Source of the DNA: Candidatus Eiseniibacteriota bacterium
GTDB lineage: Bacteria; Eisenbacteria; RBG-16-71-46; CAVPCR01; CBDCWB01
Direction: 5' to 3'
Assembly (NCBI GenBank): GCA_965223205.1
Contig: OZ244990.1
Span: 2,864,170-2,928,169 of the forward strand
Length of the DNA stretch: 64,000 nt
Both the position numbers and the translations under genes were made by a program. The notes below the pieces were generated by a model that ran no database searches, was not told the origin of the DNA, and worked only from the letters and a program-made list of their open reading frames with translations. Below, one piece after another: positions 9,298-61,564 of this stretch. How positions within the stretch are numbered: the stretch's first letter is position 1; each line of letters opens with the position of its first letter.

Positions 9298-9340
9298 GTT
9301 CGTTTCAATGAATCGACATCACCCAGAGTTCGACGCCTGA

Positions 9341-9371
9341 CTTCACCCCGCGCGGGGAGAAGTTTTTTTTT
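9341..9371 (+). terminator. Intrinsic terminator / attenuator of the pyr leader
   Basis: CTTCaCCCC-gcgc-GGGGaGAAG hairpin followed directly by a run of 9 T (9363-9371), 30 nt upstream of the pyrR ATG. Confidence 0.6.
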
Positions 9372-9400: not shown

Positions 9401-9964
9401 ATGTCTTCAACGAGCGACAAGGTCGAGCGTCGCGTCATTATGGGCCCCCAGGAGATACGCCGGGCCTTGACCCGCATAGCCCACGAGATCGTCGAGCGCA
9501 ACCGCGGTACCGAAGGGCTTGGGTTGATCGGCGTCGAGCGCCGCGGTGTGCCTTTGGCCCGCCGGGTCGCCGAGCTGATCCAGGAGTTCGAGTCCACCGA
9601 GGTGCCGGTGGGCAACTTGGACATCACCCTCTACCGGGACGACTTGGCAACCATCGGCCCACAGCCGATCGTGCGGGCCACCGCCATCCCCTTCGATATC
9701 ACCGATCGGGTGCTGGTCTTGGTCGACGACGTGCTCTACACCGGCCGCACCGTCAGGGCGGCGCTCGATTCGATCATCGACTTTGGGAGGCCCAAGGTCA
9801 TTCAGCTGGCGGTCTTGGTCGACCGCGGGCACCGCGAGCTGCCGGTGCGGGCCGACTACGTCGGCAAGAATCTGCCGACGTCGTTGAATGAGATTGTCGA
9901 CGTGCGTCTCACCGAGCAGGACGGCGAGGAGCTGGTCGCCATCCGCAAACGCCAGAGCGTATGA
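9401..9964 (+). CDS. pyrR: Bifunctional pyrimidine operon regulator / uracil phosphoribosyltransferase PyrR
   Basis: [42 protein letters not shown] (PRPP-binding) and [22 protein letters not shown] motifs. Start placed at the ATG for MSSTSDK; an in-frame ATG at 9389 and GTG at 9383 are alternatives. Confidence 0.9.
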
Positions 9965-40700: not shown

Positions 40701-41232
40701 TTGGACCGGTGTTCCGGGTATGAACTTTTCTCTGCGCTACGACCCCTATGAGCGCCGGAACGAGCAGTACTCCACCGATCTGCGCTTTGAGTTCACCAGG
40801 CGGCCAAAAACCACCGACTCGGAGGCCCCGGTGCTCGACTCCGAGGCCCCGGTGCTCGACTCCGAGGAGCCCGAAGAAGAAGTCGAACCTGTCGCGCAAG
40901 CTGTGTTCCCATCGCGATTTACGCTGAGTGGTTCGTTCAGCTTCGCGGGCGGAGGTGGTAGCGCCAAACATCTGCAGACCACCTCGACCATGCGCTTCAA
41001 CCTGACTCCGAAGTGGAACCTGTACTACTCAGTGACCATTGACCCACTCGAACGCTCCATCGTATCGCAGCGCTACAACATCGTCCGTGACTTGCATTGT
41101 TGGGAGGCGCGGTTTAGCCGCGCCTTTTCCGGCAACCGCTGGGAGTATTCGTTCCGGATCGCGGCGCGCGATCTACCCGACTTGTTCTACGAAAAGACCT
41201 CGGGAGTGACCCGTCAATCCAGCTTGTTCTAG
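37732..41232 (+). CDS. lptD: LPS-assembly protein LptD (OstA family), unusually large (1166 aa)
   Basis: Signal peptide, extended N-terminal region of repeated OstA/LptA-like beta-jellyroll segments, then beta-barrel region with LptD-like segment ILALPFYMFPINKGRQSGLLVPRIEFG. Assignment by motif resemblance. Confidence 0.75.
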   Translation: MRWLTALVVAVVMWMAPHPSWSQAAEPSREFDGPTQVDGDKLEQVQEDGRPILLVKSVRLRQGTTAVTGKVGRFDRLNQWLTIDGDVRIVEGATTIRGERATYDLRTRQATVTGDVEIEEAGVTVQAPRARYDRDTAITRLGGGVRVEGLEGGRQVDADSLVFESTTGRVEAYGDVVIEDPDEQALVRGQRAVYERGSGDLDVTDRASMQLSQRGQPVLVTADSLCFLRQSDVVEARGGVRVQQGLTEAYAGFARFEERQERAFLTDSPLALSSTGVVRGDTLHLRMRQDAIEQVIAVGDARAIYESAKPAAGDAPPSRDVMRLVGDTLWLRVVDGEADEVRAVGQAETVYEPTGAGGARLNRARGERIRLLLDRGEPYQAIVEGDATGTYYFAAAADTADSLVSGVPGVVDSVTALGSPARLGGTRDQFLGAAAVPDSSVEEVQYSARRMTYLAERGELRLEEEAVVEYQASTLRAGQIRFQAEERLLVATESPELTEGADVIDGDLMTYDLDTRVGQVHTGVTEFERGIYRGAKLERSPDNVFYVEDGAYTTCDLDEPHYHFASRQMKLYLGDKAVAKPLVLHAGRVPILALPFYMFPINKGRQSGLLVPRIEFGVSDRTGRFVRNAGYYWVINDYADLEAFADLNEHSPFFVANSRFRYHVRYMMRGEISASSSFGEANRDWDVEGDWRTLEGLPRFSANIDFLSRRSFRQDAQSLLESNRLDTELRTNLTYEKAFESGTSLTVSSERVQRLQDASGATLAGSGVVTGVAPSVALSFAPRTLGGPPDAKGRGGRWPWLASTSYSFRAAARNTYDSRRPDSRYLRTADGSASLSDARALGYLRLVPSVGASATYVERTESLVDGIQVPGIGHVVTGGVTYGLQLRTEVFGRWRPRLGPYHGFRHVITPSAGFSHTRPFDSRRDLLVEPEPFSSLSLRLGNRLETRLGEPGEFRVHRDFLTFNLTTSYDVDGRSARRFSDINLSGRFVPWTGVPGMNFSLRYDPYERRNEQYSTDLRFEFTRRPKTTDSEAPVLDSEAPVLDSEEPEEEVEPVAQAVFPSRFTLSGSFSFAGGGGSAKHLQTTSTMRFNLTPKWNLYYSVTIDPLERSIVSQRYNIVRDLHCWEARFSRAFSGNRWEYSFRIAARDLPDLFYEKTSGVTRQSSLF
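40816..40870 (+). repeat. In-frame 21-bp tandem direct repeat (2.6 copies) inside lptD encoding (DSEAPVL)x2-DSEE
   Basis: gactcggaggccccggtgctc / gactccgaggccccggtgctc / gactccgaggagc read directly from the sequence. Confidence 0.8.
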
Positions 41233-41337
41233 GGTCGCGGTTGGACTTTTGCGTAGTTTCTCGGTGCGTTTCAAGCGTCAGAGTGCGATGACGCCGTGTC
41301 ATCGCGATGATCTCGTACGAAGCGTGCGCTTTTGTTG

Positions 41338-41366
41338 TTGACACGCGCCCGATCGATTCAATAGCC
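41338..41366 (+). promoter_or_regulatory. Candidate promoter for the HU gene (-35 TTGACA at 41338-41343; weak -10 around 41361-41367)
   Basis: Perfect -35 hexamer in an AT-richer gap; strong AAAGGAGGTGA ribosome-binding site at 41387-41397 before the ATG at 41402. Confidence 0.3.
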
Positions 41367-41401
41367 TGCCCCCGTTCCTTCGCCGAAAGGAGGTGAACGG
41401 C

Positions 41402-41704
41402 ATGAACAAGACTGAATTGACAGCGGCTCTCGCCGACAAGGTTGGTCTCACGTTGAAAGACGCGAAGCTAACTGTCGACGCCATGTTCTCGACTGAACCC
41501 CGTGAAGGCATCATTGCTTCCGAGCTCGCGGCGGGCAGGAAAGTGACTGTCACTGGGTTTGGGACATTCGAGACGCGCAAGCGCAAGGCTCGTGAAGGTC
41601 GCAATCCGCAGACCGGGGAACCGATCAAGATTGCGGCGGCGCGCTATCCGGCCTTCCATCCAGGCAAGGCTTTGAAGGATCGCGTCAAGAAGAAGCGGCG
41701 CTAG
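41402..41704 (+). CDS. HU-family nucleoid-associated DNA-binding protein
   Basis: MNKTELTAALADKVGLT...GFGTFETRKRKAREGRNPQTGEPIKIAA...F.PGKALKD, the canonical HU/IHF fold signature; C-terminal lysine-rich tail. Confidence 0.9.
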   Translation: MNKTELTAALADKVGLTLKDAKLTVDAMFSTEPREGIIASELAAGRKVTVTGFGTFETRKRKAREGRNPQTGEPIKIAAARYPAFHPGKALKDRVKKKRR

Positions 41705-41728
41705 CCGACCTCGATTCTCGAGGACCCA

Positions 41729-41762
41729 GGGGTGCTCCGTAGTTGGGGCACCCCGCTTTTTT
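41729..41762 (+). terminator. Intrinsic terminator downstream of the HU gene
   Basis: GGGGTGC...GCACCCC hairpin (41729-41754) followed by GC and TTTTTT (41757-41762). Confidence 0.6.
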
Positions 41763-41940
41763 GTGGGGCAAAACCCTCCCCTGCGGGGGGCCGTCCTCGA
41801 GCTTTGGCGCGCTTTTGACCCTTCGCTGCCCGGCCAGCGGCTACCATGGTGCTCGAACTTGTAGGGTGGCAGCGTCTACCCTAAGCCGATATAGTTGCCC
41901 GGGTTCCACGATTGACCTTAATGGGTGCTGAGGAGTGAGC

Positions 41941-42081
41941 ATGTTGAAGTGGTTGAGCGCCATTGCCCTGGTGGCGTCCCTCGGAATGCAGGGGGACGCC
42001 CGCGCCGAACGCTCGGAGGAAGTCGAGCTGCTGATCATCAGTTCCGCCTCCAATCGCGGCGAAGTCGATCCCTGCGGGTGA
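41941..42081 (+). other. Signal-peptide-encoding 5' segment, in frame with the downstream cytochrome ORF and terminated by a single in-frame TGA (42079-42081)
   Basis: GGAG 5 nt upstream of the ATG at 41941. Encodes MLKWLSAIALVASLGMQGDARA|ERSEEVELLIISSASNRGEVDPCG then TGA. Same frame as 42145..43293, with no other stop in between. Confidence 0.5.
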
Positions 42082-42144
42082 AAAAAGTCCCAGAAGGGGG
42101 GGCTAGCCCGGCGGGCTTGCCTAGTCGACTCAGTCAGAACACAT

Positions 42145-43293
42145 GTGGATGACCAACTCCTGCTCGTAGACGGCGGCGACTACACCCATCCCAACATGAC
42201 CAAGGACGACCGCTTGAACTGGTTTGTCCTGGAGGCCATGGGGCGGATGGGCTACGACGCCATGACCTTGGGCGAGCTCGAGTTGTACCGCGGTGCCGAG
42301 TACGTCGAACGCATTCTTGCCGAGAGTCAGGTACCGGTGGCCTTGGCCAACGTTTTCTTCGCTGACACCGGCGAGCGGGTAGGTGCCGAGACGGTCGTCG
42401 TCGACAAGAGCGGCGTCAAGATCGGCATTCTCGGCCTCATGGGTCAGGACTTTGGTGAGGGCGTTGCCAAGTTTGAGGGGCTCGGTTTCCGCATCGACGA
42501 TCCGTTCGAAGTGGCTGCCAAAGTGGTGCCCGAACTCAGCTCCCAGGTCGACGTGGTAGTTGTCCTGTCCCATGCACCCTCGGCTGACACCTTCCAGCTG
42601 CCCAAGCAGGTGAACGGCATCGACCTTCTGGTTTTCGGGCACTACCCGGGCACCGTGGCCGCGACGCAGGTCGACGGTGCTGTGACCATCCGCTCGGGCC
42701 AGCGCGGCCAGCACATCGCCGAGACCCGCGTGGTGATCAACCCGGAAAACGAAGTGGTGACATACGAGGGCAAGGCGACAGCGTTGCTTATCGATACTTT
42801 CTGCGAGGACCCGACCCTGGCAGAGGAGCTCACCTCGCTCAAAGACGATGTCGAGGCCGACCAGCGCAAGTCGCAGCTTGAGGAGGAGATTCGCAGCCAG
42901 TCCTCCAAGTTGGTCTTGGGCCAGGACCACTTCATGGGCGATGCCAAGTGCTCCCGCTGCCACGCCGACATTTACAGCCATTGGCAGGAAACACCGCACG
43001 CCCGCGCCTTTCAGACGCTGGTCGACGATCAGGCGGCTGAGAACTCCGAGTGCCTCAAGTGCCACGTCACCGGTTTTCAGCTAGCCGGGGGCTTTCAGGG
43101 AGTGGGTGCCGACGCGGATATGCGCAACGTCCAGTGCGAGGCGTGTCACGACATGGGTACCCGCCACAACATGATCGACGCCAAGCCGGTGGGCGAAGTC
43201 GCCTGCCTGGGGTGTCACGACCAGGAGAACAGCCCGGCGTTCGACTTCGAGTCCTACTGGGCTGAGATCGCCCACCCCAAACCAAGCGATTAG
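42145..43293 (+). CDS. Calcineurin-like/5'-nucleotidase-like (degenerate metallophosphatase) domain fused to a C-terminal tetrahaem c-type cytochrome; ORF as given. The biological gene probably begins at 41941 if the TGA is read through.
   Basis: Four CxxCH haem-binding motifs (CSRCH, CLKCH, CEACH, CLGCH) in the last 120 aa; N-terminal LLLVDGGDY...GELELYRG resembles metallophosphatase motifs II/III. The GTG start at 42145 has no ribosome-binding site and no signal peptide. Confidence 0.7.
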   Translation: MDDQLLLVDGGDYTHPNMTKDDRLNWFVLEAMGRMGYDAMTLGELELYRGAEYVERILAESQVPVALANVFFADTGERVGAETVVVDKSGVKIGILGLMGQDFGEGVAKFEGLGFRIDDPFEVAAKVVPELSSQVDVVVVLSHAPSADTFQLPKQVNGIDLLVFGHYPGTVAATQVDGAVTIRSGQRGQHIAETRVVINPENEVVTYEGKATALLIDTFCEDPTLAEELTSLKDDVEADQRKSQLEEEIRSQSSKLVLGQDHFMGDAKCSRCHADIYSHWQETPHARAFQTLVDDQAAENSECLKCHVTGFQLAGGFQGVGADADMRNVQCEACHDMGTRHNMIDAKPVGEVACLGCHDQENSPAFDFESYWAEIAHPKPSD

Positions 43294-58583: not shown

Positions 58584-58851
58584 CCAGTCTCAAAGCGGGA
58601 CACGCTGGCGGCGGCGGTGAGTTGCACCGCGCCACCACTCCTGCAAGATGCGTGCTCGGACGCTACGTCTGAACATCGTTCCCGCTTGCATCTGCCTCAG
58701 TAACATCGCGTTGTGCCATTGACTACAAGTGGCACATTACTTGCCGAACGCTCTCCCGGACTGCCAAAGGCAGCCTCGGGCAATGGCGTCCGCTGGTGCG
58801 CGACGCCTGCCAACTCACATCAGATGACTTGAGCACCAGGGGGAAAACTGC

Positions 58852-59322
58852 ATGAACACGCAAGGAAGAAGTTGGGGGTTGGCTGGCGTTGTGGTGGCCG
58901 CTGCTCTAGCGGTCGTGGGTTGTGGAGAGGACGAGGCTGGACCCGGGACGCCCGATCAGGCGGCGCCGTCGCGCCCCAGCGGCCTGGTGGCGAGCGGGTT
59001 GGCGACGACGCCGGGCGCCGCGGCCGCCGTGACTCTGAACTGGACGGCCAATGCCGAGAGCGACGTTGCCACCTATCAGGTCTACTTCTCGACGACACCA
59101 GCAAACGAGACCTCGTACGAACTCCTCGGGACGGTCCCCGCCACCGTCCAGACCTACCAGGATGCACGGGCCCTGGGCAGCGCCTATGCTTACAAGGTGA
59201 CGGCGATGGATACGGCCGAGAACGAGAGTGAGCGTTCGGACGCGGCAATCGTCGAGCTGCCCAATTGGCCCACTGGCGGCACCAAAGTCTCCACCTCAGA
59301 CTGGCGGGATGAGGACTTTTAG
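58852..59322 (+). CDS. Small lipoprotein with a fibronectin type III-like domain
   Basis: Lipobox AVVGC, then an FN3-like module (VTLNWTANAESDVATYQVY...YAYKVTAMDTAENESERS). Confidence 0.6.
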   Translation: MNTQGRSWGLAGVVVAAALAVVGCGEDEAGPGTPDQAAPSRPSGLVASGLATTPGAAAAVTLNWTANAESDVATYQVYFSTTPANETSYELLGTVPATVQTYQDARALGSAYAYKVTAMDTAENESERSDAAIVELPNWPTGGTKVSTSDWRDEDF

Positions 59323-60022
59323 CCCAACACCCTCGCCGCCTTGCGGCCGGATGTGCACAATGGGTAAAAAGAGGGGCCGTCGCTCCATTTGAGGATTGGA
59401 GGACAGCCCCTGCTTGAGGAGGGCTCCGCACGAGCGGGGCCCTAAGGCCGACGGCAGTGGGCTCGGTACACTGCTCGCCAGCGAAGCAGCACGAGGGGGG
59501 ATCCTGACCACGTCGCCCACCATCGCGGTCAACTGAGTATTTTCAGTGGGGTTCCCCCCTCGCTACATCTGTGCTCCAGAACACACTCCGCCATTCGCCC
59601 TAGTGGGCCACTCCGCAAAGTCTTCTTGCGGGCGGACGCGCACCAGGCGCGCCACGGGTGCCAACAACCTGGCGCTAACCGTCGGCTAGCGCTGGGGCGT
59701 TGGGTAGCTGGTTCTGTTGCTCGTTAGCCAGTTGGGAATACGCTGATCCGGGCGGCCGGTGACGGGAGTTCACTTGGGGGGCGCTGGGCGCCGGAACGTG
59801 CGGTGTAGCCAGATCGTGGTTGGATTCTCCTGGTGTCCACGCGAGCGCGGGCGCCGCTCGAGCTGACACCCTCATTTTATAGCACGGACTCGGCGCTCGG
59901 GCAACGCGGTTTTAGAAGTGGGTCCTTCCGGCCTGGGTGGCCGGCCCCAACCCCTGGCCCCTGACTTGCAACTCCGGTGGTAGGCGGCCACTAGGGGCCG
60001 CCGCGGCGGGGAGCTGCCTACT

Positions 60023-61564
60023 GTGTTGACGCGCGTGGCGTCGGCGGCGACGCTTGGGGTTCAGGGCTTTGTCGTGCAGGTGGAGGTTCACGCTGGCCGC
60101 GGCCTGCCGGCCTACCACGTCGTCGGCCTGCCAGACGCGGCGGTACGCGAAAGTCGCGAACGGATCACGGCAGCGCTCGACGCTTGTGGCCGCCGGCTGC
60201 CGCCCTCAAGACTGACCGTTAACTTAGCCCCGGCTGGGATCAAGAAGGCGGGCCCGGCGTTTGACTTGCCCATTGCCCTGGGTTTGATTGTGGCTACCTG
60301 CCAGGGGCGCCGCTGCCGCCTGGATGGACTCGGGGTGGTCGGCGAGCTGTCGTTGGACGGGCGCATCCAGCCGCTACGCGGCGCCTTGGCGTTGGCCATC
60401 GCCCTGCGCGACGCCGGCATCCACCACATCATCGTTCCCGCCGCCAACGCCAGCGAAGTGGCGATGGCTGCCGGTTTGCAAGTGCATCCCGTCGATCACC
60501 TGAGCGAGGTGCTCCAGTGGCTAGCCGGCGGTGGGCGGGTGGCGGCGTTGCCGGGTTATGCCGACGGGCCGCCGGCCCATCGGGAGCCAAGACCGGTACC
60601 TAGCTGGGCGACGATCCGCGGCCAACTCCACGCCAAGCGTGCCCTGGAGGTGGCCGCGGCTGGTGGGCATCACCTCATCATGATCGGGCCACCCGGCTCG
60701 GGAAAAACCAGCCTGGCGCGACAACTGCCTGGCCTCTTGCCCTGCCTCGACGACGAGGAGGCTCTGGACGTCACGCAGATTGCCTCGGTGGTCGGCCAAA
60801 ACGGCGGACAACCGGTCAGGCAGCGGCCGTTTCGCGCCCCCCATCACACCATCTCGACGGCGGGGATGGTCGGCGGCGGCCAGCCGGTGCGTCCGGGCGA
60901 GATCACCTTGGCGCACCGCGGCGTCTTGTTCCTGGACGAGTTGCCTGAGTTCAGGCGGGTGACGCTCGAGGCTCTCAGGCAACCGCTCGAGACGGGCGAG
61001 TTGCACCTGGTCCGGGCGCAATACACCGTCCGGCTGCCCTGCCAGTTCCAACTGGTTGGAGCGCTCAACCCCTGTCCGTGCGGTTGGCTGGGTGACCTCG
61101 AGCAACGCTGCGCGTGTACGCCGACGGCAGTGCGCCAATATCGCGCCCGGCTCTCCGGGCCGCTGCTCGATCGGATCGACCTGCACGTCGAGGTTGCCCG
61201 GGTGGCACCAGAGTTGTTGTTTAAGTCGGCGGCGCCGGGCGCTGAAGTGGCCGCAGAAGACGTCCGTGTGCGCCTCGAGAAGGCCCGCGCGCGGTCCATT
61301 TCGCGGTTCGCGGGTCGATCGTGCCGCTCCAACGCCGAGCTCACCGCGACCGAGGTTCTCGGCCTATGCCGGTTGGACGACGCCAGCGTCAAGCTGATCC
61401 ACGGCGCGGTCCGGCGACACGGCCTGACCGCGCGCGCTACCACCAGCATTGTCAAGGTGGCGCGGACCATCGCCGACTTGGACGGCGCCGCGCGCATCGC
61501 CCGCCAGCACGTTGCCGAGGCGATTTCCTACCGCGCCCTGGATAGACGGCTCGAGCTGGACTAG
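60023..61564 (+). CDS. YifB/ComM-family Mg-chelatase-like AAA+ ATPase
   Basis: N-terminal Lon-protease-like domain, Walker A (GPPGSGKT), Walker B (VLFLDELPEF), and C-terminal Mg-chelatase subunit ChlI-like segment. Confidence 0.88.
   Translation: MLTRVASAATLGVQGFVVQVEVHAGRGLPAYHVVGLPDAAVRESRERITAALDACGRRLPPSRLTVNLAPAGIKKAGPAFDLPIALGLIVATCQGRRCRLDGLGVVGELSLDGRIQPLRGALALAIALRDAGIHHIIVPAANASEVAMAAGLQVHPVDHLSEVLQWLAGGGRVAALPGYADGPPAHREPRPVPSWATIRGQLHAKRALEVAAAGGHHLIMIGPPGSGKTSLARQLPGLLPCLDDEEALDVTQIASVVGQNGGQPVRQRPFRAPHHTISTAGMVGGGQPVRPGEITLAHRGVLFLDELPEFRRVTLEALRQPLETGELHLVRAQYTVRLPCQFQLVGALNPCPCGWLGDLEQRCACTPTAVRQYRARLSGPLLDRIDLHVEVARVAPELLFKSAAPGAEVAAEDVRVRLEKARARSISRFAGRSCRSNAELTATEVLGLCRLDDASVKLIHGAVRRHGLTARATTSIVKVARTIADLDGAARIARQHVAEAISYRALDRRLELD

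What the first reader, a model, noticed from the sequence alone, without database searches (positions are those of the whole stretch)
59323..60022. 700-bp non-coding gap in an otherwise tightly packed region
Almost all genes here are separated by fewer than 50 bp or overlap, but 59323-60022 contains no convincing ORF (only short, low-complexity frames). It has several GC-rich inverted repeats and an AT-rich patch (CATTTTATAGCA at 59871-59882). I found no recognisable tmRNA, RNase P or SRP RNA signature by eye. A partial CCGGAAGGA match on the - strand lacks the flanking SRP consensus.
Basis: seen in the sequence. Interest (0 to 1): 0.4.

Follow-up and report, generated by a model that had tools for sequence, protein, structure and literature searches.

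The report
Candidate minus-strand structured RNA gene
The 700-bp "empty" stretch is really non-coding and most likely holds a roughly 500-base, strongly folded RNA gene of unknown function on the opposite strand, but this rests on one sequence from a poorly sampled bacterial lineage and is unconfirmed.

Summary
The gap 59323-60022 is real. It is the longest stretch of the 64-kb window with no coding signal in any frame. No gap ORF has gene-like codon usage, and the six-frame translations hit no Pfam family. No known RNA family matches: Rfam gives nothing at gathering thresholds or in permissive scans, and ARAGORN finds no tRNA or tmRNA.

The gap is still organised, on the minus strand:
It lies 17 nt after a -35 box (TTGCCC, 59904-59899).
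- About 500 nt downstream on the same strand is a textbook intrinsic terminator: stem 59411-59372 (-28 kcal/mol), then UCUUUUUA.
- The 3' 340 nt between them (59700-59362) folds far better than shuffles on the minus strand (z = -6.4, sharply defined ensemble). The plus strand is weaker (z = -4.1, ordinary ensemble). Twelve of the 13 other intergenic segments tested show no such signal; 58584-58851 reaches only z about -3.

Best reading, confidence about 0.5: an orphan non-coding RNA gene of about 504 nt, convergent with the Tol-Pal-like operon and divergent from comM.

Conservation could not be tested. ComM relatives are at most 53% identical, and the neighbouring 156-aa protein has no homologue. 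Function is unknown. Interest is moderate to low until transcription or covariation is shown.

The parts
59366..59869 (-). Candidate non-coding RNA transcript of about 504 nt. The predicted start is about 59869 and the predicted 3' end about 59366.
   Evidence: Bounded by the promoter-like site and the terminator. The full-length fold gives z = -4.09 with 100 shuffles. No ORF shows SD support or coding codon usage.
59876..59904 (-). Sigma-70-type promoter: -35 TTGCCC (59904-59899), 17-nt spacer, TG-extended -10 TGcTATAAA (59884-59876).
   Evidence: It matches 9/12 positions plus the TG extension. It is the only promoter-like site in 59300-60060 on either strand, even at 8/12. Only 9 such sites occur in the whole window on both strands, and 4 of them are intergenic. 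The consensus tool missed it because the last -10 base is A.
59834..59868 (-). Predicted 5'-terminal stem-loop of the transcript.
   Evidence: Present in both the MFE and the centroid fold of the full-length RNA.
59701..59833 (-). C/A-rich segment with little structure. It contains three CCAAC motifs and a CAACAGAACCAGC stretch. The least-paired part is 59749-59702.
   Evidence: z is about 0 for windows in this segment. Mean pairing probability is 0.41 over 59749-59702. The composition skew is shown.
59420..59700 (-). Structured core of five stem-loop domains: SL1 59700-59664, SL2 59661-59583, SL3 (branched) 59577-59483, SL4 59482-59447, SL5 59443-59420.
   Evidence: The 59700-59362 minus-strand fold gives -176.1 kcal/mol against shuffles at -142.4 +/- 5.2, so z = -6.44. 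Ensemble diversity is 34 against 83 +/- 23 for shuffles, with 0 of 60 as low.
59365..59411 (-). Intrinsic (Rho-independent) terminator. The stem is AGGGGCUGUCCUCCA / UGGAG-C-GACGGCCCCU (59411-59372) with a 9-nt loop, followed by U-tract UCUUUUUA (59372-59365).
   Evidence: The hairpin folds at -28.0 kcal/mol. It was found in the T-run scan.
59323..59364 (+). Short 3' untranslated tail of the 156-aa lipoprotein gene, upstream of the shared hairpin.
   Evidence: Read directly from the sequence. No plus-strand hairpin-plus-T-run occurs anywhere in the gap.
59905..60022 (+). comM upstream region. It holds a near-palindrome GGCGGCCACT/AGGGGCCGCC (59983-60002) and the SD GGGGAG (60008-60013), which ends 9 nt before the GTG start.
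   Evidence: No sigma-70-like promoter for comM was found, and the segment shows no excess structure.

Best explanation
The gap carries an independent minus-strand gene for a non-coding RNA of about 504 nt.

Proposed sequence of events:
1. RNA polymerase with a sigma-70-type factor starts at about 59869. The promoter is TTGCCC-17 nt-TGcTATAAA.
2. It transcribes a 5' hairpin and then a C/A-rich, largely single-stranded segment of about 130 nt.
3. It then transcribes a well-defined core of about 280 nt made of five stem-loop domains.
4. It stops at a GC-rich hairpin followed by UCUUUUUA at 59411-59365.

That hairpin sits 50 nt past the stop codon of the convergent Tol-Pal-like operon. It also keeps the RNA from running antisense into that operon. 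The remaining ~120 nt on the right is the comM upstream region, which is divergent from the RNA's promoter.

Shown computationally: absence of coding signal, the promoter-like and terminator elements, and the strand-biased excess folding.

Inferred only: that the elements are used, that the RNA accumulates, and what it does. My guess at mechanism is a regulatory or protein-binding RNA. The stable multi-hairpin 3' body would act as scaffold and stabiliser. The exposed C/A-rich 5' stretch would be the interaction surface for G-rich ribosome-binding sites or for an RNA chaperone.
For: Non-coding status. The gap is the longest stretch of the window without coding signal. ORF log-likelihood ratios (LLR) are below the gene range. 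No SD motif precedes any minus-strand ORF of 20 aa or more inside the transcript. There is no Pfam hit in six frames.

Promoter. This is the only promoter-like site in the gap, at 9/12 plus the TG extension. Window-wide there are only 9 such sites in 128 kb of strand. Four are intergenic, and the other three intergenic ones lie at sensible distances upstream of genes (25240, 41866, 45929). The HU gene has a TTGACA -35 box at 41339. So sigma-70-type signals appear to be used in this organism.

Terminator. The hairpin folds at -28 kcal/mol and directly abuts UCUUUUUA on the minus strand. Among the 50 T-rich octamers listed, by my inspection only this one and the HU gene terminator (41728-41762) have the textbook form. 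It lies on the same strand as the promoter and about 500 nt downstream of it.

Structure. z = -6.44 on the minus strand against -4.11 on the plus strand for 59362-59700. The 150-nt windows reach z = -5.5 on the minus strand, against a background of mean -0.16, sd 1.07 and minimum -4.18 over 294 windows. Twelve of the 13 other intergenic segments give |z| < 1.5; 58584-58851 gives z about -3 on both strands. Minus-strand ensemble diversity is 34 against 83 +/- 23 for shuffles, with 0 of 60 as low. The plus strand gives 68, with 20 of 60 shuffles as low.

Uniqueness. No second copy exists in the window, so it is not a dispersed repeat at this scale.
Against: - All evidence is in silico and from one sequence. 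No homologue was found, so there is no covariation and no conservation.
- No expression data are available.
- The -35 box matches only 4/6, and the -10 box ends in A rather than T.
- Hairpins fold on both strands, so part of the z-score is strand-neutral. The plus strand still reaches -4.1.
- The 5' third of the proposed RNA shows no excess structure. The true start could therefore lie elsewhere.
- No match to any of 4227 Rfam families.
- Target prediction against the window's translation-initiation regions singled out nothing.
Confidence: 0.5

Rival explanations
1. This is an operon-boundary spacer with cis elements only. On this reading the hairpins are a bidirectional terminator and 3'-end-stabilising structures of the plus-strand Tol-Pal-like transcript. 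The right half is the comM promoter and leader. The minus-strand 'promoter' is a chance match, or a weak antisense promoter without a dedicated product.
For: - The gap lies exactly between two same-strand transcription units.
- The plus strand also folds better than shuffles, with z = -4.1.
- The neighbouring intra-operon spacer 58584-58851 is also moderately structured, with z about -3 on both strands.
- No homologue or known RNA family supports a gene.
Against: - Roughly 380 nt containing six hairpins is far more than a terminator needs.
- The plus-strand reading of the terminal hairpin has no U-tract, and the gap has no plus-strand terminator at all.
- The plus-strand ensemble is as diffuse as its shuffles.
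- Structure, promoter and terminator all favour the minus strand.
- No plus-strand promoter for comM is detectable.
Confidence: 0.25
2. This is a decayed remnant of a gene or of a small mobile element, such as a MITE- or REP-like cluster of palindromes, with no present function.
For: - An 18-nt, 83% complementary inverted repeat brackets 59425-59866 (I1).
- There is a weak chance-level resemblance to the REP-derived naRNA4 model, at E = 2.3.
- The source appears to be a long single-contig assembly, where indel errors can break genes.
Against: - No residual similarity to any Pfam family in six frames.
- No codon periodicity.
- No second copy in the 64-kb window or in 83 fetched loci, by blastn and nhmmer.
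- By my estimate about 0.3 inverted repeats of that quality are expected by chance in 700 nt at this GC content.
- A decayed remnant does not explain a correctly ordered promoter and terminator on one strand.
Confidence: 0.1
3. The minus-strand unit, or the plus strand, encodes one or more small proteins that composition-based methods miss.
For: Short ORFs exist on both strands, including a 66-aa ATG ORF at 59875-59675 (-) and 21- to 38-aa ORFs inside the predicted transcript.
Against: - The 66-aa ORF's ATG lies inside or against the -10 box, so upstream of the predicted start.
- None of the ORFs of 20 aa or more inside the transcript has an SD motif, although genes in this window commonly do.
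- Codon-usage scores all lie below the 5th percentile of real genes.
- The ORFs run through the strongest helices.
- No Pfam hits.
Confidence: 0.07
4. This is a highly divergent member of a known housekeeping or large RNA family (6S, RNase P, SRP, tmRNA, OLE, ROOL, GOLLD, raiA or HEARO) that the covariance models fail to recognise in this deep lineage.
For: - The organism is phylogenetically isolated: ComM relatives are at most 53% identical and CarB relatives at most 68%.
- Short motif resemblances exist. ACAGAACCAGCUAC on the minus strand resembles the RNase P ACAGAACCCGGCUUA, and GGCCGGAAGGA resembles the SRP loop.
Against: - No Rfam hit even at E<=10 with relaxed filters on a 521-nt query. 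ARAGORN is negative.
- The RNase P-like and SRP-like motifs sit in the wrong places. There is no GGAAAGUCC partner on the same strand, and the SRP-like motif lies upstream of the promoter.
- The fold is a string of separate hairpins. It is not a 6S rod or a P1-P4 core.
Confidence: 0.03

Closest known systems
Free-standing bacterial intergenic sRNA genes with their own sigma-70 promoter and Rho-independent terminator. The long ones are the nearest by size, for example E. coli CsrB (~370 nt) and Pseudomonas CrcZ (~400 nt); these examples are from my own knowledge.
   Same: It sits in an intergenic region. It has its own promoter-like and terminator elements on one strand, no ORF, a multi-hairpin body, and a terminal hairpin followed by a U-tract. 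It is orientated independently of its neighbours.
   Different: There is no sequence or covariance-model similarity. GGA motifs occur at roughly the frequency expected from base composition (my estimate), so there is no CsrB-like signature. There is only one short CA/ARN-like stretch, unlike the repeated CA motifs of CrcZ. At about 504 nt it is longer than most sRNAs. It is unverified and has no homologues.
Large structured bacterial ncRNAs of unknown or recently found function that are represented in Rfam, such as OLE, ROOL, GOLLD, raiA and HEARO.
   Same: The size class is several hundred nucleotides. The predicted fold is unusually stable and well defined. It lies in a long intergenic region of an otherwise compact genome.
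   Different: None of these families matches. Those classes were defined by covariation across many genomes, and here there is a single sequence. The characteristic gene neighbourhoods are absent, for example an IscB or TnpB gene next to HEARO.
Bidirectional intrinsic terminators between convergent transcription units.
   Same: One GC-rich hairpin (59372-59411) lies between the end of the plus-strand operon and the end of the proposed minus-strand RNA. It has an A-tract on its plus-strand upstream side.
   Different: Only the minus-strand side has a proper U-tract. The plus-strand side reads UGCUUGAG, so termination of the Tol-Pal-like operon at this hairpin is doubtful.

Membership tests
Any Rfam 15 family (4227 models) | Covariance-model score at or above the family's gathering threshold | tested here: not met
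   There are 0 hits in the whole window at gathering thresholds. The permissive scans gave only chance-level hits with E>=0.1 to unrelated families: snoRNAs, an IRES, naRNA4 and lncRNA fragments.
tmRNA / tRNA | tRNA-like domain plus a tag reading frame, or a cloverleaf | tested here: not met
   ARAGORN found 0 genes in the window.
SRP RNA (4.5S or large) | Domain IV hairpin with a GGAA-type loop and conserved symmetric and asymmetric loops | tested here: not met
   There is no Rfam SRP hit at E<=10. The CCGGAAGGA motif at 59931-59923 (-) lacks the 3' AGCAGCC side and lies outside the predicted transcript.
RNase P RNA | P4 helix formed by GGAAAGUCC and ACAGAAnnnGGCUUA on one strand, plus the conserved core | tested here: not met
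   There is no Rfam hit. The two partial motif look-alikes lie on opposite strands.
6S RNA | A rod of about 180 nt with a large central bubble, matching the Rfam 6S models | tested here: not met
   There is no Rfam hit. The predicted fold is a series of separate hairpins.
Sigma-70-type promoter | -35 TTGACA-like and -10 TATAAT-like hexamers 16-19 nt apart | tested here: met
   TTGCCC-17-TATAAA matches 9/12 and has a TG extension at 59904-59876 (-). This is a sequence match only; use of the promoter was not shown.
Intrinsic (Rho-independent) terminator | GC-rich hairpin immediately followed by a U-tract on the transcribed strand | tested here: met
   A 15-bp stem with one bulge and a 9-nt loop folds at -28.0 kcal/mol and is followed by UCUUUUUA on the minus strand.
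Protein-coding gene or pseudogene | ORF with host-like codon usage and a ribosome-binding site, or residual similarity to protein families | tested here: not met
   Codon scores per codon (log-likelihood ratio, LLR) are -0.44 to +0.02, against 0.31 +/- 0.14 for genes. No SD motif was found. There is no Pfam hit in six frames.
Dispersed repeat (REP/BIME, MITE) | Multiple similar copies in intergenic regions of the same genome | tested here: inconclusive
   No second copy occurs in the 64-kb window. The other 4.5 Mb of the genome could not be searched.
Conserved structured ncRNA (in the general sense) | Homologues in other genomes with compensatory base changes | not testable with these tools
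   No sufficiently close relative is retrievable. ComM relatives are at most 53% identical. The 156-aa neighbour has no homologue. The genome scan was saturated by conserved ComM motifs. The metagenome 20-mer scan gave only 2 chance hits, on contigs of 33% and 39% GC.

The most novel reading that the evidence does not exclude
The interval encodes the founding member of a new class of large (~0.5 kb), highly structured non-coding RNA. The class would be confined to a deep, essentially unsampled bacterial lineage. On CarB similarity that lineage lies nearest to unnamed long-contig genomes and then to proteins labelled Candidatus Eisenbacteria. Its function, whether scaffold, ribonucleoprotein or ribozyme-like, would go beyond ordinary base-pairing sRNAs.
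Probability: 0.12. Interest if true: 0.6.

Novelty: new member of a known kind. Interest (0 to 1): 0.33.

Why it matters
If it is transcribed, this would be an unannotated RNA gene of unusual length and predicted fold stability. It would come from a bacterial lineage for which essentially nothing is known about RNA-based regulation. Large, strongly structured bacterial RNAs are rare, and several have turned out to have unexpected biochemical roles. In practice the finding gives exact coordinates, a strand and a secondary-structure model. These can be tested by a Northern blot or by metatranscriptome mapping. They can also be turned into a covariance model to search the full genome and its relatives. 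If it is not transcribed, the region is an ordinary, though long, operon-boundary spacer.

Tried and rejected
Known RNA families.
- Rfam at gathering thresholds on the whole window and permissive scans on two sub-ranges gave nothing meaningful.
- ARAGORN found nothing.
- The built-in promoter/terminator consensus scan found nothing. Both elements fall just outside its rules: the terminator loop is 9 nt and the last -10 base is A.

Search for relatives.
- The genome-contig scan with ComM was saturated by universally conserved motifs. It returned only loci at 43-51% identity, none syntenic.
- Exact look-ups of the window's ComM in the contig index failed.
- P0002, nominally the best ComM relative, is an internally duplicated assembly artefact at 47-49% identity in a different gene context.
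- The 156-aa neighbour has no homologue among 5.8 billion proteins.
- CarB places the organism apart. The best relatives are 64-68% identical and unnamed, followed by a plateau at about 60% that includes sequences labelled Eisenbacteria.
- The metagenome scan with a 20-mer from SL3 returned two low-GC chance matches.

Similarity searches of the gap itself.
- blastn and nhmmer against the window and 83 fetched loci found nothing.

Target prediction.
- Duplex energies against 32 translation-initiation regions of the window did not discriminate in this GC-rich background.

Ideas rejected.
- A possible 5'/3' closing helix (I1) was rejected as evidence. By my estimate about 0.3 such repeats are expected by chance.
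- A CsrB-like GGA signature was rejected. By my estimate the count is roughly what base composition predicts.
- oriC, attachment-site, riboswitch and ribozyme readings were rejected. There are no Rfam hits, no tRNA and no AT-rich unwinding region.

One script timed out with no result. One Pfam call failed because the translations contained stop codons and was redone.

Full report
**1. The observation**

The interval 59323-60022 lies between two plus-strand genes.
- Upstream is a 156-aa FN3-like lipoprotein ORF (58852-59322). It is the last gene of a cluster with a TolB-like beta-propeller protein and a TPR protein.
- Downstream is comM/yifB (60023-61564), which carries the Mg_chelatase, ChlI and Mg_chelatase_C domains.

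Exactly these two products, from a 4.58-Mb contig, are in the public protein collection. The deposited annotation therefore leaves the same gap.

Several tests show the gap is non-coding.
- A six-frame codon-usage scan trained on 22 genes of the window shows 59251-60090 as the longest stretch without coding signal. The runners-up are 540, 495, 465 and 450 nt.
- Every ORF in the gap scores below the 5th percentile of real-gene chunks.
- None of the minus-strand ORFs of 20 aa or more inside the predicted transcript has a Shine-Dalgarno motif, although genes in this window commonly do.
- None of the six translated frames hits a Pfam family at E<=1.

The gap is real. 'Otherwise tightly packed' is only roughly true, since spacers of about 250-390 bp also occur. 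The other apparent large gap, 41232-42082, actually contains an HU gene.

**2. Known RNAs**

- Rfam 15 at gathering thresholds finds nothing in the whole 64 kb.
- Permissive scans of 59100-60250 and of 59355-59875 give only chance-level hits to unrelated families.
- ARAGORN finds no tRNA or tmRNA.
It lies upstream of the promoter described in section 3.

**3. What the sequence does contain**

The signals all point to the minus strand.

(a) Promoter.
- Read on the minus strand it is TGcTATAAA, a TG-extended -10 box. It lies 17 nt downstream of TTGCCC (59904-59899).
- It is the only promoter-like site in the gap on either strand, even at a relaxed 8/12 threshold.
- Only nine such sites occur in the whole window on both strands. 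Four are intergenic, and the other three intergenic ones sit at sensible distances upstream of genes.
- The HU gene also has a TTGACA -35 box.
- The organism therefore appears to use sigma-70-type signals.

(b) Terminator.
- About 500 nt downstream on the same strand lies a 15-bp GC-rich hairpin with one bulge and a 9-nt loop. It folds at -28.0 kcal/mol and directly abuts UCUUUUUA (59411-59365).
- Among the 50 T-rich octamers in the window, by my inspection only this one and the HU gene terminator (41728-41762) have the textbook form.
- The built-in consensus scan missed both the promoter and the terminator, because each falls just outside its rules.

(c) Structure.
- In 150-nt windows the left part of the gap reaches z = -5.5 on the minus strand. 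The window-wide background has mean -0.16, sd 1.07 and minimum -4.18 over 294 windows.
- For 59700-59362 the minus strand gives z = -6.44 and the plus strand -4.11, each with 100 shuffles.
- The minus-strand ensemble is sharply defined, with diversity 34 against 83 +/- 23 for shuffles and 0 of 60 shuffles as low. The plus-strand ensemble is ordinary, at 68 with 20 of 60 shuffles as low.
- Of 13 other intergenic segments, 12 show no excess folding. The neighbouring spacer 58584-58851 reaches z about -3.
- The right part of the gap (59701-60022) is not unusually structured.

(d) Predicted fold.
- SL1: 59700-59664.
- SL2: a long irregular hairpin, 59661-59583.
- SL3: a branched domain closed by CGAGGGGGGA/UCCCCCCUCG, 59577-59483.
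- SL4: 59482-59447.
- SL5: 59443-59420.
- The terminator hairpin follows.
- The 5' third of the predicted transcript has a terminal hairpin (59868-59834). It is followed by a C/A-rich stretch whose least-paired part is 59749-59702.

**4. Interpretation**

The simplest reading is a free-standing minus-strand gene for a non-coding RNA of about 504 nt (59869 to 59366). It is convergent with the Tol-Pal-like operon and divergent from comM. The remaining ~120 nt is the comM upstream region. That region holds a near-palindrome at 59983-60002 and an SD at 60008-60013, but no recognisable comM promoter.

I put this reading at about 0.5. The rivals are:
- a purely cis-acting operon-boundary spacer (0.25);
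- a decayed gene or mobile-element remnant (0.10);
- small protein gene(s) (0.07);
- an unrecognisably divergent known RNA (0.03).

Function is inferred only. I guess at a regulatory or protein-binding RNA that uses the exposed C/A-rich 5' stretch, with the hairpin array as a stable body. Duplex predictions against the window's translation-initiation regions did not single out a target.

**5. Why conservation could not be tested**

- The organism is isolated in the databases. ComM relatives are at most 53% identical.
- The nominal best hit, P0002, is a duplicated artefact in a different gene context.
- The 156-aa neighbour has no homologue.
- CarB has a few unnamed relatives at 64-68% identity. 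Below them is a plateau at about 60% that includes sequences labelled Candidatus Eisenbacteria.
- The metagenome scan gave two chance matches on low-GC contigs.
- blastn and nhmmer of the gap against everything fetched found nothing.

**6. Verdict**

- The interpretation, an uncharacterised non-coding element that is not one of the housekeeping RNAs, is partly supported. It is sharpened into a specific, testable gene model on the opposite strand.
- It would be a new member of a known kind: an orphan bacterial ncRNA gene with a standard promoter and terminator.
- It is notable mainly for its size and predicted fold stability.
- Without expression or covariation data the interest is moderate to low.

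Noticed in passing
window 41941-43293 (+), TGA at 42079-42081: A gene for a signal-peptide-bearing protein is interrupted by one in-frame TGA (…SNRGEVDPCG[TGA]KKSQKGGLARR…). The protein has a weak metallophosphoesterase match and a multihaem cytochrome c554-like domain. A GC-rich hairpin begins about 20 nt after the TGA. This could be a selenocysteine codon or an assembly error. The hairpin's folding z-score is not significant.
   Followed up: partly
window 41339-41762 (+): The apparent second large gap contains an HU (Bac_DNA_binding, E = 1.6e-29) gene at 41402-41704. Its GC3 is lower than the window average. It has a GGAGG SD, a TTGACA -35 box at 41339 and a textbook terminator, GGGGUGCUCCGUAGUUGGGGCACCCC-GCUUUUUU, at 41728-41762. 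It served here as a positive control for promoter and terminator signals.
   Followed up: yes
window 58584-58851: The 268-bp spacer between the TPR gene and the 156-aa lipoprotein gene also folds better than shuffles on both strands, with z = -3.0 (plus) and -3.5 (minus). It has no Rfam match. This may be an intra-operon processing or stability element.
   Followed up: partly
window ~9300-9370 (+), upstream of pyrR (9401-9964): A small GC hairpin, CCCCGCGCGGGG, is followed by AGAAGUUUUUU just upstream of the pyrR-pyrB-pyrC-carA-carB cluster. It looks like a transcription attenuator of the pyr operon leader, yet no Rfam PyrR element was called at the gathering threshold.
   Followed up: no
whole window; proteins P0001, P0121, P0122: The source organism is phylogenetically isolated. 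ComM relatives are at most 53% identical. The 156-aa FN3-like lipoprotein has no homologue among 5.8 billion proteins. CarB's best relatives are 64-68% identical and come from a handful of unnamed long contigs, ahead of a plateau at about 60% that includes sequences labelled Candidatus Eisenbacteria.
   Followed up: partly
locus L081 (P0002, GCA_029782595.1 contig JARCCX010004644.1): The 627-aa ComM homologue P0002 contains an internal tandem duplication of about 120 residues of the AAA+ core. Residues ~225-346 of the query align twice. This inflated its bit score and is probably an assembly or gene-call artefact.
   Followed up: yes
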